Shown: in pieces, positions 11,040 to 50,350 of the stretch | Layout: the number at the start of each line of letters is the position of its first letter | Numbering within the stretch: the first letter of the stretch is position 1 | DNA from: Octopus vulgaris | Lineage: Eukaryota | Assembly: GCA_951406725.2 (NCBI GenBank) | Contig: OX597838.1 | Location: forward strand, 10,168,001-10,232,000 | Direction of reading: 5' to 3' | DNA: 64,000 bases | Position numbers and translations under genes: made by a program | The notes under the pieces: model-generated | Databases searched by the model: none | Told to the model about the DNA's origin: nothing | What the model saw: the letters and a program-made list of their open reading frames with translations, nothing else

Positions 11040-12099
11040 ATCTGTACTCTAGTCAGTTGATTCACTGTTTACATAACTAAAGTGAAACCAGTCTTGAAGT
11101 TTTAATCTCTTAGACACACTTTAAATCCATGTTAACACAAGTCACAAACTGCTGTGTCAGACTATGATTATAAGGAAAAAAAAAGGGGGGATAAAATACT
11201 ATTTCCTTTTCAAAGCTGTTTGTTCTAATGTTCGCTTGTGGACTCAACAGATATTACTGGGTACTAAATACTTTCTTTGAGCGATAGAAATCTTTTTTAC
11301 TTTTACTTTTTTTTTTGTTGTTGTTGTTGTTTTGTTTTTGTTAATGAAATTAAGAAATATGTTCTCGAATGGAAGTCTTTTAATATCGAAGTTCCAGGTT
11401 CCAGAGAAGTGAAGTCAAATATCCAGGGTTGTGTCCGATTTCAAATGATCTTTCATAATCTAGAAAACACAGAAGCAGAAAAAAAAAAAAATATATAATG
11501 AAAATCAAAAGATAAAATGAACATATCAGAAATTATACAACAATGAAAATTTCCTGCCTAATAACAGATTTTATCCTTAATAATATGAATAAGACAGCAC
11601 GCAGGCAGAATTGTTAGCATGCCAGAAAAAAATGTTCATCATTATGTTCTGATGAAGGATCAAGTAGGTGTATTAGCTTGATGCTTGGGAAAAATAGGGA
11701 AGTCACTGACATTTTGAGCCTTGACAGAAAGGAATGAGAAGAAAAAAAATGGGGAGAGAGAGAGAGGAGAAGGAAAAATGTATCTGGATTAATGGTTCCA
11801 CTCACACACACATACATACATACATACAAGGTTTCTTTTAGTTTCCCTCTATCAAATTCCCTTACAAGACTTAAATCAGTCTGGAACTATAGTAGAAGAC
11901 ACCCATGCAGTGAGACTGAACCTGAAACTATGTGGTTGGGAAACAAACTTTTAAACCAGTAGTTTTCAACAGGGGTCTGTATGACCCTTAGGGATCCCGT
12001 ATAAGGTTATACTTCTACATTACACAAAATAGTTTAACAATTTTTTTAAGTAAAATTTCCAATAATATTTAGTTATAAAAATGTAATAAAATTATTTAA

Positions 12100-12320
12100 C
12101 CCTTTCGTTACCAACCCGGCTGAAACTGCCTCTGGCTCTTTAGTACAAATGTCTGGTTTTCAAAAGTTCTGAATTAAAACCTTCCACCAAACCTTAATCA
12201 CAATTTATGTCCCTAATTCTAGCTTAATGATAACGATGTTATTTTACTTAATTCTTTGTTATATTTAACATAATTGGAAGAAACAGAGAGCATCTCAAAA
12301 TAAATTCAGTAACGAAAGGG
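12100..12320. mobile_element. piggyBac-type MITE (copy 2), nested in an older CAG-ended MITE (~11958-12406)
   Basis: TTAA|CCCTTTCGTTAC...GTAACGAAAGGG|TTAA; the host element has CAGTAGTTTTCAAC / GTTGAGAACAACTG ends. Confidence 0.8.
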
Positions 12321-12819
12321 TTAAGCACCGAATGGCTATGGGAGGGTTCACCCAAGTAAAATAGGAATCAAAGAGGTCCACAGATAAAAACTGGTTGAGA
12401 ACAACTGTTCTACATGTCTGTTATAAACCACAGAAGCCGACTGAGCTCTTCACCATCTTAGAAAGGCTTTTATCAAACTGACATGTAATAACTTGCTGCA
12501 CAAGTTAACATAAAGATATCACTTCTCAAATCGGTCATGAAGTCATTGACACCTGAGAATTTGTAACTGAACAGTACAGGTGATATTTACTAATAAACTA
12601 ATAATTGTACTATTTTATGGATTTAATGGAAATGACATGGAAACAAAAAGTTGATGGTAGTAAATACAAAACACAAGTTGTTGTTGTTTAATATCAATAA
12701 ACTGGGTTTCCATGACAACTGGAAAAATACCAGGTGAGAGTAGAGGAACTGGAATTGACATCTTCAATTCATAAACTTTTGAGGAAACAGAATAAATCTC
12801 CTTTTCAATTGGTTCTCAA

Positions 12820-13213
12820 TCTCTCTATATATAAAGCTGAAGTTGTCTGTGTATGGCAGGTTTGGTAGCCTTCAACTAACACTATCTCCTCCGAGAAACT
12901 GCGGCGCAAGTTGACCAAAATTGAGAGTGTGATAGAAGAAAGCTTGCTCTTCCTTCCACAGAAGAAGAAATTCAAATTGGACCATGTTAACACCAAAAAT
13001 TATTTACATCAAAAAGGTGCTTTTTTTTCTATGAAAATCCTTATTTTTTACTATTTTTTTGACTGCTGTGTTGTCATTTTTCAGTGTATTTCAACCAGAA
13101 AAATGCTTACTTAAAGAGAATAACAAGATACATAATGCAAAATTTTTACTTTTCAAACATTCCAATTCTAAAGGGTCGAAACAAACCCGAGCAACACCGG
13201 GCGATACTGCTAG
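12820..13213 (+). mobile_element. Non-autonomous Helitron
   Basis: 5' A|TC start followed by TATATATAAA; 3' hairpin CCCGAGCAACACCGGG ~10 nt before terminal CTAG|T; no TSD. Confidence 0.75.
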
Positions 13214-46587: not shown

Positions 46588-47160
46588 ATAGATAGATAGC
46601 CAGAAAGATAGATAGATAGATAGATAGATAGATAGATAGCCAGAAAGATAGATAGATAGCCAGAAAGACAGATAGATAGATAGATAGATAGATAGATAGA
46701 TAGATAGATAGATAGTCAGAAAGATAGATAGATAGATAGATAGATAGATAGATAGATAGATAGATAGATAGATAGGCAGAAAGACAGATAGATAGATAGA
46801 TAGATAGGCAGAAAGACAGATAGATAGATAGATAGATAGATAGATAGGCAGAAAGACAGATAGATAGATAGATAGGCAGAAAGACAGATAGATAGATAGA
46901 TAGATAGATAGATAGATAGGCAGAAAGACAGATAGATAGATAGATAGATAGGTAGATAGGCAGAAAGACAGATAGATAGATAGATAGATAGATAGATAGA
47001 TAGATAGGCAGAAAGACAGATAGATAGATAGATAGATAGATAGGCAGAAAGACAGATAGATAGATAGATAGATAGATAGATAGATAGATAGATAGATAGA
47101 TAGATAGATAGATAGATAGATAGATAGCCAGAAAGATAGATGGATAGATAGATAGATAGA
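46588..47160. repeat. (GATA)n array with recurring GGCAGAAAGACA interruptions
   Basis: Directly visible higher-order microsatellite. Confidence 0.95.
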
Positions 47161-50100
47161 TTTATATATGACTAGTCTTTCGGAATAGCTGTATGCTTGC
47201 ATGTCTTTATACATACATGCCCTTTTTTGGGGGGGTTTTATCCAAATTTCTATGATGTTATTTCAATTATTTTTCTTCTAGATAGATAGATAAAGAGAGT
47301 AGGACAGACAGACAGACAGAAAAATAGCACAGCAGACAGAAAGCGTGACAGACGGGTAGATAGGACAAGAAAGGCAGATATACAGCAGATGATGATGAGA
47401 CAGACGACAGCAAGACAGATATACAGTCAGATATACAGGCAGACGACAAGGCAAATAGACAGCACAGATCGATATATAGATAGATAGATCTGTTTCAATT
47501 TTTAACGTATAGTCTCTGACATGATACGTAAAATGATGGTTGTTGACGATGTCGGTTTTTAGCCAGACAGCGACTGCAACTAGTTGTCGGAAATCTCTCA
47601 TGTTCACCACACACATCACACAATCACACACACACCGCATCTGCATCTGCATCCATACAAAACCGTTCACGTCTTCATAGATTTTTCAGCCATTCAGTCA
47701 AGTCATGGTTGTCTCCAAAAAAGACGAAGAAAAATGGAGAAAGACAAAAACAAGTTTGAATGGAATCGATGACGAAATAAATTTCAATATATGTGTGAGT
47801 GTGTGTGCGCGTGTATATATATATATATATATATATATATATATATATATATATATATATATATAAAAGGAAAGCGTGTGTAATATATAAAATCTGGGGT
47901 GGAAAAAAAATGTGTGAAGAGATGACAAATGTGTCTGTCGTCTGTTTGAAGAGGGAGGATAATCATCTGTTGAGAAAAATGTGTCGTGTGTCTGTCATTA
48001 TAAGGAAAAGAATTGAAATAACATCATAGAAATTTGGATAAAAACCCCAAAATAGGGCATGTATGTATAAAGACATGCAAACATAGAGCTATTCCGAAAG
48101 ACCAGCCATATATAAATATACATATATATATATATATATATATATATATATATATATATATACACGCGCGCGTGCAGACATACCTATATATACATACACA
48201 CACGCAGACAGACATGAATTCATACACGAAATGCTTTGTGTTCAATAATTTGAGAGAGAAATTTTATATATATATATATATATATATATATATATATATA
48301 TATATAGAGAGAGAGAGAGAGAGAGAGAGAGAGAGAGAGAGGGAGGGAGGGAGAAAGAGAGAAATGTCCATACATATACACACACACATATATATATATA
48401 TTAAAATATCCATGAAGGAATTTAAACACCTGAACGCAGAAGGAATCTAATCAACTAAATAAAAACCTTTAAAAATTTTTGAGAAAAAAAAAAAAAGACA
48501 TAAATGGAACTACTTATAATAATAATAATAATAATAATAATAATAATAATAATAAACTATTGTTTATAAATCAATCAGTAAATTGAGAGAGCTTTATCGA
48601 TTACGTAAGATCCCTTGAATATTCGAATGTAGCAGAGATATTGGTGTGGCATTTTTGTGTGATTATTATTATTATTATTATTATTATAATTTTTTAATTA
48701 AAAATAGTGTTGAAATAAATACATGAAATATCTCCCCCTGAAAGTAAAAAAAAAAACTAATCAATCGATACTACAGAAAAAAAGAGAAATCAATCAATCA
48801 ACATATTTTGTCTGTTGATAAGTAAAGTATTATGCAAAGTAAAAATGGTAATAATAAAATAGCAGTAAGTAAGAAGGAAACTGCTGTGTCTGTGTCTTGT
48901 TTCTTCTCCTCCATAGTTATAAAACGTGGTGCAAGAAGAGACAAGCTTCTCTTTTCTCTGTTCGTTCTTCGTATAAAAGCTCGGTCGTCGACAAAGAGTA
49001 AGGAATGAAGAAGAAAAAAAAAAGGCCGTCATCAATCAAATCTTTCACATGTAACAAACAAACACCGTTTAAATATTTATTGTGGAACAGTTTTGTGGGA
49101 TTCGAAAAAAAATCCATCCAGCAGCGCTGACACGAAAACCAAATAAATAATTAATAATAATATCATTACTAATATATAATATATAATATATAAATGGTTT
49201 TTGATTTTGGCACAAGGCCAACTATTTTTTTCAAAAAATTTCTTTTAAGGAGAATGGGGGGAAAAATCAGGCGATATCAGAGAATAGGACAAATACCAGA
49301 GACAAATAGGACAAATCACCCAAGTATTTAACTGGTACTTTTATTTTATCGACCCCTTCAAACCCCTTCAAAAAAGGATGAAAGGCAAAGTCAACCTCGG
49401 CTGGGATTTGAACTCAGAACGTCAAGAGGTAAAGAATTGGAACATCGCAAGGCATTTTTTTCTGACGTTCAAACAAATTCTTCTTTGTAACCTATCGCCC
49501 TAATTATAATATTTTTGTGCTTTTCTTAGCCGGAGGGTCCTTTTATAATAAATAAATAATGCTTGGATTATTAGTCTTTCCAGTGAGAGAGAAAGAGTCA
49601 CCAGTAGTAATTAATAATAATAAGCAAGAATTAGGGGAACTCGGCTTCTTCCTTGTGGCCCAGTTCACATTATTTATTTTATTTTTCCTCAGATTCCACG
49701 TTGTGAAATCTCAGTGAAATTCCTCCTCTTATGGCGTATTTAGAAGGAAAAAAGCAAAAGAAAAAAGAACAAGAAAAACCGAAATTGCACCTTCGCTTTC
49801 TCTCGTTCCAGCAATCATTATTTAAAAACAGTTTACACAAATTCCACATATCTAAATAATCCGAGCATTTATTTGGCTCCTTTTAAAATCGATACATCGA
49901 TATTCAAATAGCCATATATCATCATCATACATGATGATGACAGACGGCCAAATCGCTTCGCTTTTTGCCCTTCTTTCCCCCTTCTAAACGCCATCAAAAC
50001 AAACCGGCCTTTGCGCTGTTTATATCATATTTTTTTCCGCCTCGCCGTTAAATGCATTTTTGCCTTCTTTTTTTCCCCCGCCGCCTCTTGAATTAAATAT

Positions 50101-50170
50101 CATTAAGGAATGTACGTATATACGAAAAGAAGAAACGGTCATCTGAGAATCAAATGGGTGTAAGACTTAC

Positions 50171-50350
50171 GGTGAATACGTAACATTTTCCAAGGGTTTC
50201 CGAGCCGCTCTCTGTTCCTTAACGAGAACCCAGGGACTGTTGTTGTTGTCATGTGTGTAAACTCGGATAAGAATAAACATGCGTCTCTCGCAGTTATCTG
50301 CCCTTGGTTTCTAATGGCATAGAAAGGGAGAGGCGGCGGGGGAAACGGAT
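50171..50350 (-). promoter_or_regulatory. Predicted distal first exon and promoter of the zinc-finger gene
   Basis: Donor ACC|GTAAGT at 50170; CpG-rich unique sequence; GC-box-like CCCCCGCCGCC and ETS-like CGGATGT near the 5' end; sits near the transition from CpG-rich to CpG-depleted DNA. The TSS is approximate. Confidence 0.6.

What the first reader, a model, noticed from the sequence alone, without database searches (positions are those of the whole stretch)
11380..50252. Spliced upstream microprotein ORF: one N-terminal exon, three possible 24-26-aa C-termini, around a 2027-aa ORF
Seen: the distal first exon has an ATG at 50252 reading MTTTTVPGFSLRNRERLGNPWKMLRIH into a phase-1 donor. Joined to the giant-exon acceptor (11459) it continues HYERSFEIGHNPGYLTSLLWNLELRY* (53 aa, stop at 11380), and the sequence becomes low-complexity shortly after that stop. 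Joined to the 17563 acceptor it gives RTGGFSDKEICVRFSCLAIYESYL* (51 aa), and to the terminal-exon acceptor (2194) QQKNFWGRRRRKKSAWKYFQMAVK* (51 aa). Inference (speculative): a bicistronic locus in which splice choice swaps the microprotein tail and gates translation of the zinc-finger ORF. The similar lengths could be chance.
Basis: inference. Interest (0 to 1): 0.7.

Follow-up and report, generated by a model that had tools for sequence, protein, structure and literature searches.

The report
Spliced upstream ORF, octopus zinc-finger gene
An octopus zinc-finger gene has a 53-codon reading frame upstream of its main protein, spliced across a 39-kb intron (an old intron-less copy elsewhere in the genome preserves that exact join), which likely acts as an ordinary brake on translation, while the proposed swap between three protein tails found no support.

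Summary
The arithmetic of the finding is right, and one of its three junctions is real. A processed copy on another contig joins the 50252-50171 exon directly to the 11459 acceptor and spans about ATG-10 to stop+11. RNA-type contigs confirm 11459 as an exon edge (2 of 4 runs). They show 2194 as the acceptor of a 3'UTR intron spliced from 4874 (3 of 4 runs). Nothing links the first exon to 17563 or 2194. The equal tail lengths are weak evidence: 6% of AG sites give 24-28 aa, so one extra among 34 candidates is expected 88% of the time. The 53-aa peptide has no homologue in any library searched. A uORF this long arises in 10-13% of shuffled leaders. Constraint against the retrocopy is not significant overall (dN/dS 0.48, p 0.12-0.27), and p is 0.04 post hoc for codons 18-53. 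Best reading: one cis-acting uORF that likely damps translation of the 2027-aa zinc-finger ORF. An ATTAAA overlapping its stop leaves room for an MKKS-like short mRNA and a real microprotein (about 0.2).

The parts
50171..50252 (-). Coding part of the distal first exon: 27 codons plus 1 nt of the uORF. The 5' end of the exon is not mapped (likely within about 100 nt upstream).
   Evidence: joined to 11459 in the processed copy; CpG o/e steps from 0.4-0.7 below 49 kb to about 0.9-1.2 above
50184..50186 (-). Second in-frame ATG (AAA before it, A at -3; the first ATG has C at -3); would give a 31-codon form
   Evidence: kept in the retrocopy
11460..50170 (-). Intron 1, 38,711 nt, GT...AG, repeat-rich
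   Evidence: absent exactly from the processed copy
11380..11459 (-). 3' half of the uORF (25 whole codons plus TAA) at the start of the giant exon
   Evidence: contig pieces stop at 11459 with 70 and 119 foreign letters upstream in X8 and X17
11379..11384 (-). ATTAAA hexamer overlapping the uORF stop; candidate proximal poly(A) signal (use inferred only)
   Evidence: the retrocopy's similarity ends at 11369
11040..11379 (-). 340-nt AT-rich spacer with an A-rich tract and two tiny uORFs (ATG 11130, 6 aa; ATG 11074, 1 aa); a 13-aa uORF from ATG 11456 overlaps the tail in another frame
4956..11039 (-). 2027-aa ORF with 13 C2H2-like motifs, in one exon; orthologues in Octopus bimaculoides (91% over the alignment) and Argonauta hians (47%)
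4874..11459 (-). Giant exon, 6,586 nt
   Evidence: contig pieces
2195..4873 (-). Intron 2 in the 3'UTR, starting 82 nt after the main stop
   Evidence: single contigs join 4874 to 2194 in X1, X2, X8 (3 of 4 runs)
1345..2194 (-).
17490..17563 (-).

Best explanation
This is a three-exon octopus zinc-finger gene whose 5' leader holds one 53-codon upstream ORF spliced across a 38.7-kb intron, and that uORF likely works mainly in cis, as a brake on translation of the 2027-aa protein. Shown: the 50171|11459 splice existed in a germ-line mRNA, with the same start and stop codons, when the retrocopy was made; 11459 and 4874|2194 are exon edges in RNA-type contigs. Inferred: scanning ribosomes would start at ATG 50252 or at the better-context ATG 50186, stop at 11380, 340 nt before the main ATG, and with three further small uORFs leave the zinc-finger ORF to leaky scanning or re-initiation. 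The ATTAAA on the stop may end some transcripts early, lowering output further. The peptide sequence is probably weakly constrained at most. The 17563 and 2194 tails are likely coincidental read-outs of an unused acceptor-like site and of the 3'UTR exon.
For: Processed copy with the exact junction. Exon edges in contigs. CpG step at 49-50 kb, read with octopus gene-body methylation and low promoter/intergenic methylation (PMC9476566, passages). uORF of 53 or more codons in 9.6-12.8% of 3,000 dinucleotide shuffles of the leader. Codon usage of the four pieces not distinguishable from shuffles (fractions 0.08-0.44). dN/dS 0.48 against the retrocopy, 6.5 synonymous of 18 changes, p 0.12-0.27. No homologue, and none found beside 5 of 5 paralogous zinc-finger loci in the 30-40 kb fetched for each. 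Under 1% of translated human and fly uORFs show conserved peptides (PMC7889888, passages).
Against: Translation and repression were not measured. The retrocopy spans almost exactly the ORF (about ATG-10 to stop+11) and ends 9-10 nt after an ATTAAA; a stop overlapped by such a hexamer occurs for 29 of 1141 chance tails (2.5%). Codons 18-53 show 5 synonymous of 10 changes (p 0.04, window chosen after looking). The copy has a frameshift while the parent frame is whole. These points fit a selected microprotein with its own short mRNA. Present-day use of the 50171 exon rests on the retrocopy and the CpG step, not on an RNA junction. Blank homology searches say little for an unannotated 53-mer.
Confidence: 0.52

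Rival explanations
1. MKKS/STREMI-like bicistronic locus: the 53-aa (or 31-aa) peptide is a selected microprotein, made from the long mRNA and from a short mRNA ended at the ATTAAA on its stop; poly(A) choice, not tail swapping, would gate the zinc-finger ORF.
For: Retrocopy covers only the ORF and ends just after the hexamer. Synonymous excess in codons 18-53 (p 0.04 post hoc) and conserved second ATG. Start and stop unchanged over dS of about 0.2 between parent and copy (pS 0.19). Precedent: uMKKS1/2 of 63 and 50 aa with poly(A) signals in the leader (PMC11837024 section 2.7).
Against: Whole-ORF test not significant. No poly(A) tail or target-site duplication of 7 nt or more at the copy, so its 3' end could come from priming in the nearby A-rich tract or from decay. 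Contigs of X8 and X17 read through the hexamer. No homologue. Low prior.
Confidence: 0.22
2. Neutral passenger: the uORF is a chance frame in an AT-rich leader, little translated, or the 50171 exon is only a minor or germ-line first exon and most mRNA uses another upstream exon.
For: 10-13% chance rate for the length; weak context of the first ATG; the sequence upstream of 11459 in X8 and X17 could not be identified.
Against: The CpG step places the gene start near 50 kb; the second ATG has A at -3; ATG and stop kept since the retrocopy arose.
Confidence: 0.2
3. One reading: one N-terminal exon is spliced to three acceptors, giving three microproteins and gating the zinc-finger ORF.
For: Of 36 acceptor-like sites, the 3 with 23-27-aa tails are these three; 17563 is the top scorer, and 11459 and 2194 are real acceptors. 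The 2194 tail's stop also overlaps an AATAAA. Mean depth in the bin holding 17563 was low but not zero (0.4-4.4; cause unknown).
Against: 6% of AG sites give 24-28 aa; at least one among 34 is expected 88% of the time. The only join seen into 2194 comes from 4874. No second copy of either region in the genome. Tails unalike. Residue-changing variant in the 2194 tail in 1 of 3 covering runs.
Confidence: 0.06

Closest known systems
Canonical regulatory uORFs of animal mRNAs (PMC7889888, passages)
   Same: AUG-initiated frame ending before the main CDS; sequence constraint not demonstrable
   Different: Longer than typical, split by a 38.7-kb intron, and recorded by an ORF-sized retrocopy
Human MKKS leader, uMKKS1/uMKKS2 (63 and 50 aa; via review PMC11837024 section 2.7; the 2013 primary paper was not read)
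   Same: About 50-aa uORF before a long CDS, with a poly(A) hexamer inside the leader
   Different: No sequence relation was found; conservation, translation, localisation and use of the hexamer are unshown here; no membrane-spanning stretch (max 15-residue hydropathy 0.23)
STREMI-SLC35A4 and similar conserved bicistronic transcripts (PMC13303939, passages)
   Same: Small spliced upstream ORF followed by a single-exon main CDS
   Different: Those were defined by long reads, ribosome footprints and purifying selection; none is met here. The main ORF belongs to a local family of giant-exon zinc-finger paralogues, which fits duplication better than retroposition into a small gene (inference).
Processed pseudogenes / retrocopies (for L002; defining features recalled)
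   Same: Exact intron loss, different contig, frameshift
   Different: No clear poly(A) tail or target-site duplication; a repeat abuts its 5' end

Membership tests
canonical uORF | AUG start and in-frame stop upstream of the main start codon | tested here: met
canonical uORF | lies on the same mRNA as the main ORF | tested here: inconclusive
   retrocopy links exon 1 to 11459; contigs run from 11459 into the main ORF; no single molecule spans both
canonical uORF | translated and represses the main ORF | not testable with these tools
   needs ribosome profiling or reporters
conserved bicistronic microprotein locus (STREMI-type criteria) | purifying selection on the small ORF | tested here: inconclusive
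   one comparison only: dN/dS 0.48, p 0.12-0.27; codons 18-53 p 0.04 post hoc
conserved bicistronic microprotein locus (STREMI-type criteria) | homologue in annotated proteomes | tested here: not met
   0 hits; tiny eukaryotic ORFs may be missing from these libraries
conserved bicistronic microprotein locus (STREMI-type criteria) | long-read polycistronic form and ribosome footprints | not testable with these tools
   only assembled contigs were available
MKKS-type uORF with leader polyadenylation | poly(A) signal in the leader just after the uORF, and used | tested here: inconclusive
   ATTAAA 11384-11379 present; retrocopy ends at 11369; no 3'-end data
alternatively spliced tail-swap locus | one donor joined to several acceptors giving distinct C-termini | tested here: inconclusive
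   1 of 3 junctions evidenced; the other two not seen, but the tools could not span them in one stretch
processed retrocopy (L002) | precise loss of the intron | tested here: met
processed retrocopy (L002) | poly(A) tail and target-site duplication | tested here: not met
   AT microsatellite follows; no flanking direct repeat of 7 nt or more
C2H2 zinc-finger protein (main ORF) | repeated C-x2-4-C-x11-13-H-x3-5-H motifs | tested here: met
   13 pattern matches; Atlas features match C2H2 clusters at 0.94-0.95
C2H2 zinc-finger protein (main ORF) | Pfam zf-C2H2 model hit | tested here: not met
   0 families at E up to 0.1: dispersed, atypical fingers

The most novel reading that the evidence does not exclude
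An unannotated octopod microprotein gene (53 or 31 aa) shares a promoter with a giant zinc-finger ORF; a poly(A) signal fused to its stop codon switches between a microprotein-only mRNA, fossilised as the C3 retrocopy, and a bicistronic mRNA: a mollusc parallel to MKKS/STREMI.
Probability: 0.2. Interest if true: 0.6.

Novelty: new member of a known kind. Interest (0 to 1): 0.33.

Why it matters
It fixes the 5' structure of an uncharacterised octopod zinc-finger gene from genome evidence alone, and gives a concrete uORF to test in a group for which my searches listed no uORF or microprotein study. If the peptide is selected and has its own short mRNA, it would be a cephalopod bicistronic locus gated by polyadenylation. 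If it is only a brake, it is ordinary uORF biology.

Tried and rejected
no RNA holder listed on record (20 of 23 rows hold the stretch; 14 of them guessed RNA); the GT..AG join 4874|2194 in contigs shows that X1, X2 and X8 hold spliced sequence. (49800-50560): X8 and X1 laid 0 records and X17 laid 1 short unrelated piece; only X16 ran through the exon and donor unspliced (50058-50305, no difference in the exon). So the X8 and X17 contigs that carry 70 and 119 foreign letters upstream of 11459 did not appear on the 50171 exon. The tool warns that a filter drops contigs and that a blank proves nothing, so this is left open: filtered out, or another upstream exon is in use. Both read-laying runs are spent, and the 39-kb intron exceeds the 20-kb limit, so no junction from exon 1 could be laid directly. 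Homology of the peptide: word search 24-77 aa none; longer proteins, 13 candidates, none at E up to 1; HMMER over 1.84 billion representatives 0; Atlas no usable hit; Pfam 0 of 5 pieces; the metagenome scan could not be run for so short a query. Own-genome copies: exon-1 peptide self plus one hit at E 7; 17563 and 2194 regions self only; leader: self, the retrocopy and one simple repeat. Paralogue leaders: best tblastn hits E 0.17 or worse; a tempting two-piece hit near paralogue B lies in two frames in intron-like sequence and was rejected; their first exons may lie outside what was fetched. In-frame fusion of exon 1 to the main ORF through the AG before 11041 was rejected: no pyrimidine tract, and contigs run through it. 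No structure prediction was run (no alignment depth). Earlier scan notes: nothing. Literature: LOC106882551 0 papers; PMC12513265 has no passage on exons, UTRs or uORFs; seen as listings. No supplements were opened; uORF tables in the supplements of PMC7889888 could bear on this locus.
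Full report
Observation. On the minus strand the ATG at 50252 opens 82 nt to a GTAAGT donor. The main ORF is 2027 aa from 11039, with 13 C2H2-like motifs, no Pfam hit and C2H2-type Atlas neighbours. Its only database relatives, 2 of 81 candidates, are O. bimaculoides LOC106882551 and an Argonauta hians protein (91% and 47% over the alignment), so the window is from an octopus.

Gene structure. Contigs of four runs were laid on 1400-17900. Single contigs join 4874 to 2194 in X1, X2 and X8 (3 of 4), so 2194 is the acceptor of a 3'UTR intron that starts 82 nt after the main stop. 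Listed pieces in X8 and X17 stop at 11459 with 70 and 119 other letters upstream (2 of 4; the listed X1 and X2 pieces break at the A-rich repeat), so 11459 is an exon edge. No listed piece lay at 17563, but the tables were cut and swamped by repeats. The second laying, on the first exon, returned no RNA-type contig there. The tool says such a blank is no evidence, so what lies upstream of 11459 in those runs stays unknown.

The decisive evidence. A search of the own genome with the 25-aa tail found a second copy on contig C3. There 75 nt matching 50246-50171 are followed directly by 91 nt matching 11459-11369 (84% and 90%): the 38,711-nt intron is missing to the base. This is a processed copy of an mRNA with the 50171|11459 junction. 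It starts about 10 nt before the ATG, against a repeat, ends 11 nt after the stop, has a 1-nt deletion and one codon fewer in the ACA run, and shows no poly(A) tail or target-site duplication of 7 nt or more. Independently, CpG o/e is 0.4-0.7 over 1-49 kb and about 0.9-1.2 above. Octopus methylation is enriched in gene bodies and scant in promoters and intergenic DNA (PMC9476566, passages), so the gene likely begins near 50.3 kb (inference).

Is the peptide selected? Over 50 aligned codons there are 6.5 synonymous and 11.5 non-synonymous changes, dN/dS 0.48. Neutral simulation with the observed transition share gives p 0.12-0.27; codons 18-53, chosen after looking, give p 0.04. A selected parent against a neutral copy would give a ratio of this order, but so can chance. 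A uORF of 53 or more codons arises in 9.6-12.8% of leader shuffles, and codon usage is unremarkable. No homologue was found, nor a similar frame near five paralogous zinc-finger loci. In human and fly under 1% of translated uORFs show conserved peptides (PMC7889888, passages). In favour of a real product: the copy is ORF-sized, an ATTAAA overlaps the stop (2.5% of chance tails), and a second ATG in better context is kept.

Three tails. But 6% of all YAG sites give 24-28 aa, so one such site among 34 is expected 88% of the time. The 2194 match is a single coincidence at about 6%, noticed after the fact. Neither region has a second genomic copy, the three peptides differ in charge and hydropathy, and X2 has a two-base change turning Arg to Gln in the 2194 tail.

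Mechanism. Shown: exon edges and the historical junction. Inferred: ribosomes load in the 50171 exon, translate the 53- or 31-codon frame, stop 340 nt before the main ATG, and meet further small uORFs, so zinc-finger output would be low and tunable. Early polyadenylation at the stop may remove the main ORF from some transcripts. By the mammalian exon-junction rule (recalled; untested in cephalopods) the 3'UTR intron would also expose the mRNA to nonsense-mediated decay.

Comparison. It works like a canonical uORF; its layout resembles human MKKS (review section) and STREMI-SLC35A4 (passages), but their defining evidence (conservation, footprints, long reads) is not met or not testable here. 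My searches found no paper on this gene or on cephalopod uORFs beyond a pan-eukaryote survey. Verdict: a real spliced uORF, new member of a known kind; tail swapping unsupported; interest 0.33.

Noticed in passing
G000:C25 near 10.09, 10.28, 19.41 and 28.70 Mb; C6 near 39.25 Mb (L018-L022, L027-L041): A family of giant-exon zinc-finger paralogues (open frames 712-3874 codons, 31-43% identical over the central finger cluster); two flank this gene within about 100 kb. Three end their giant frame at a GTAAG donor-like site, unlike this gene, which stops 82 nt before its donor.
   Followed up: partly
G000:C6:39256182 (L040) and G000:C25:10281299 (L034): The C6 paralogue has a TGA just before its 712-codon frame with coding-looking sequence upstream; the C25 neighbour changes frame inside a long tandem repeat. 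Broken genes or assembly errors.
   Followed up: no
window 17869-17563, minus: An acceptor-like site at 17869, a GTGAGT donor after 17635 and the 17563 acceptor 71 nt further on: a possible cassette exon or small intron inside intron 1.
   Followed up: partly
window 11161, minus: Second acceptor-like site inside the leader, 122 nt before the main ATG; its use would cut the uORF to 28 codons. Contigs run through it.
   Followed up: partly
window 50280 and 50320, minus: Two more upstream ATGs (38-codon frame across the same junction; 8 codons) that matter only if transcription starts above them.
   Followed up: no
window 2125-2120, minus: AATAAA overlaps the stop of the 2194 tail, as ATTAAA does for the 11459 tail; contigs continue to at least 1400.
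   Followed up: partly
L002 1340-1575: The retrocopy's frameshift puts its last 39 codons in frame with an ATG in or next to the adjoining repeat, giving a chimeric open frame of under 80 codons; expression unknown.
   Followed up: no
window 24750-26000: Local rise of CpG o/e to about 1.0-1.1 inside intron 1; young repeat or internal promoter.
   Followed up: no
window 38400-40004 (+), 27938-28312 (+), 28984-29397 (+), 41420-41947 (+): Decayed frames that look like reverse-transcriptase (YADD motif) and transposase fragments (labels recalled, from translations).
   Followed up: no
window 4977, 7425, 8787: The same single-base differences from the genome in X1, X2 and X8; not the pattern of A-to-I editing on the sense strand, likely alleles.
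   Followed up: no
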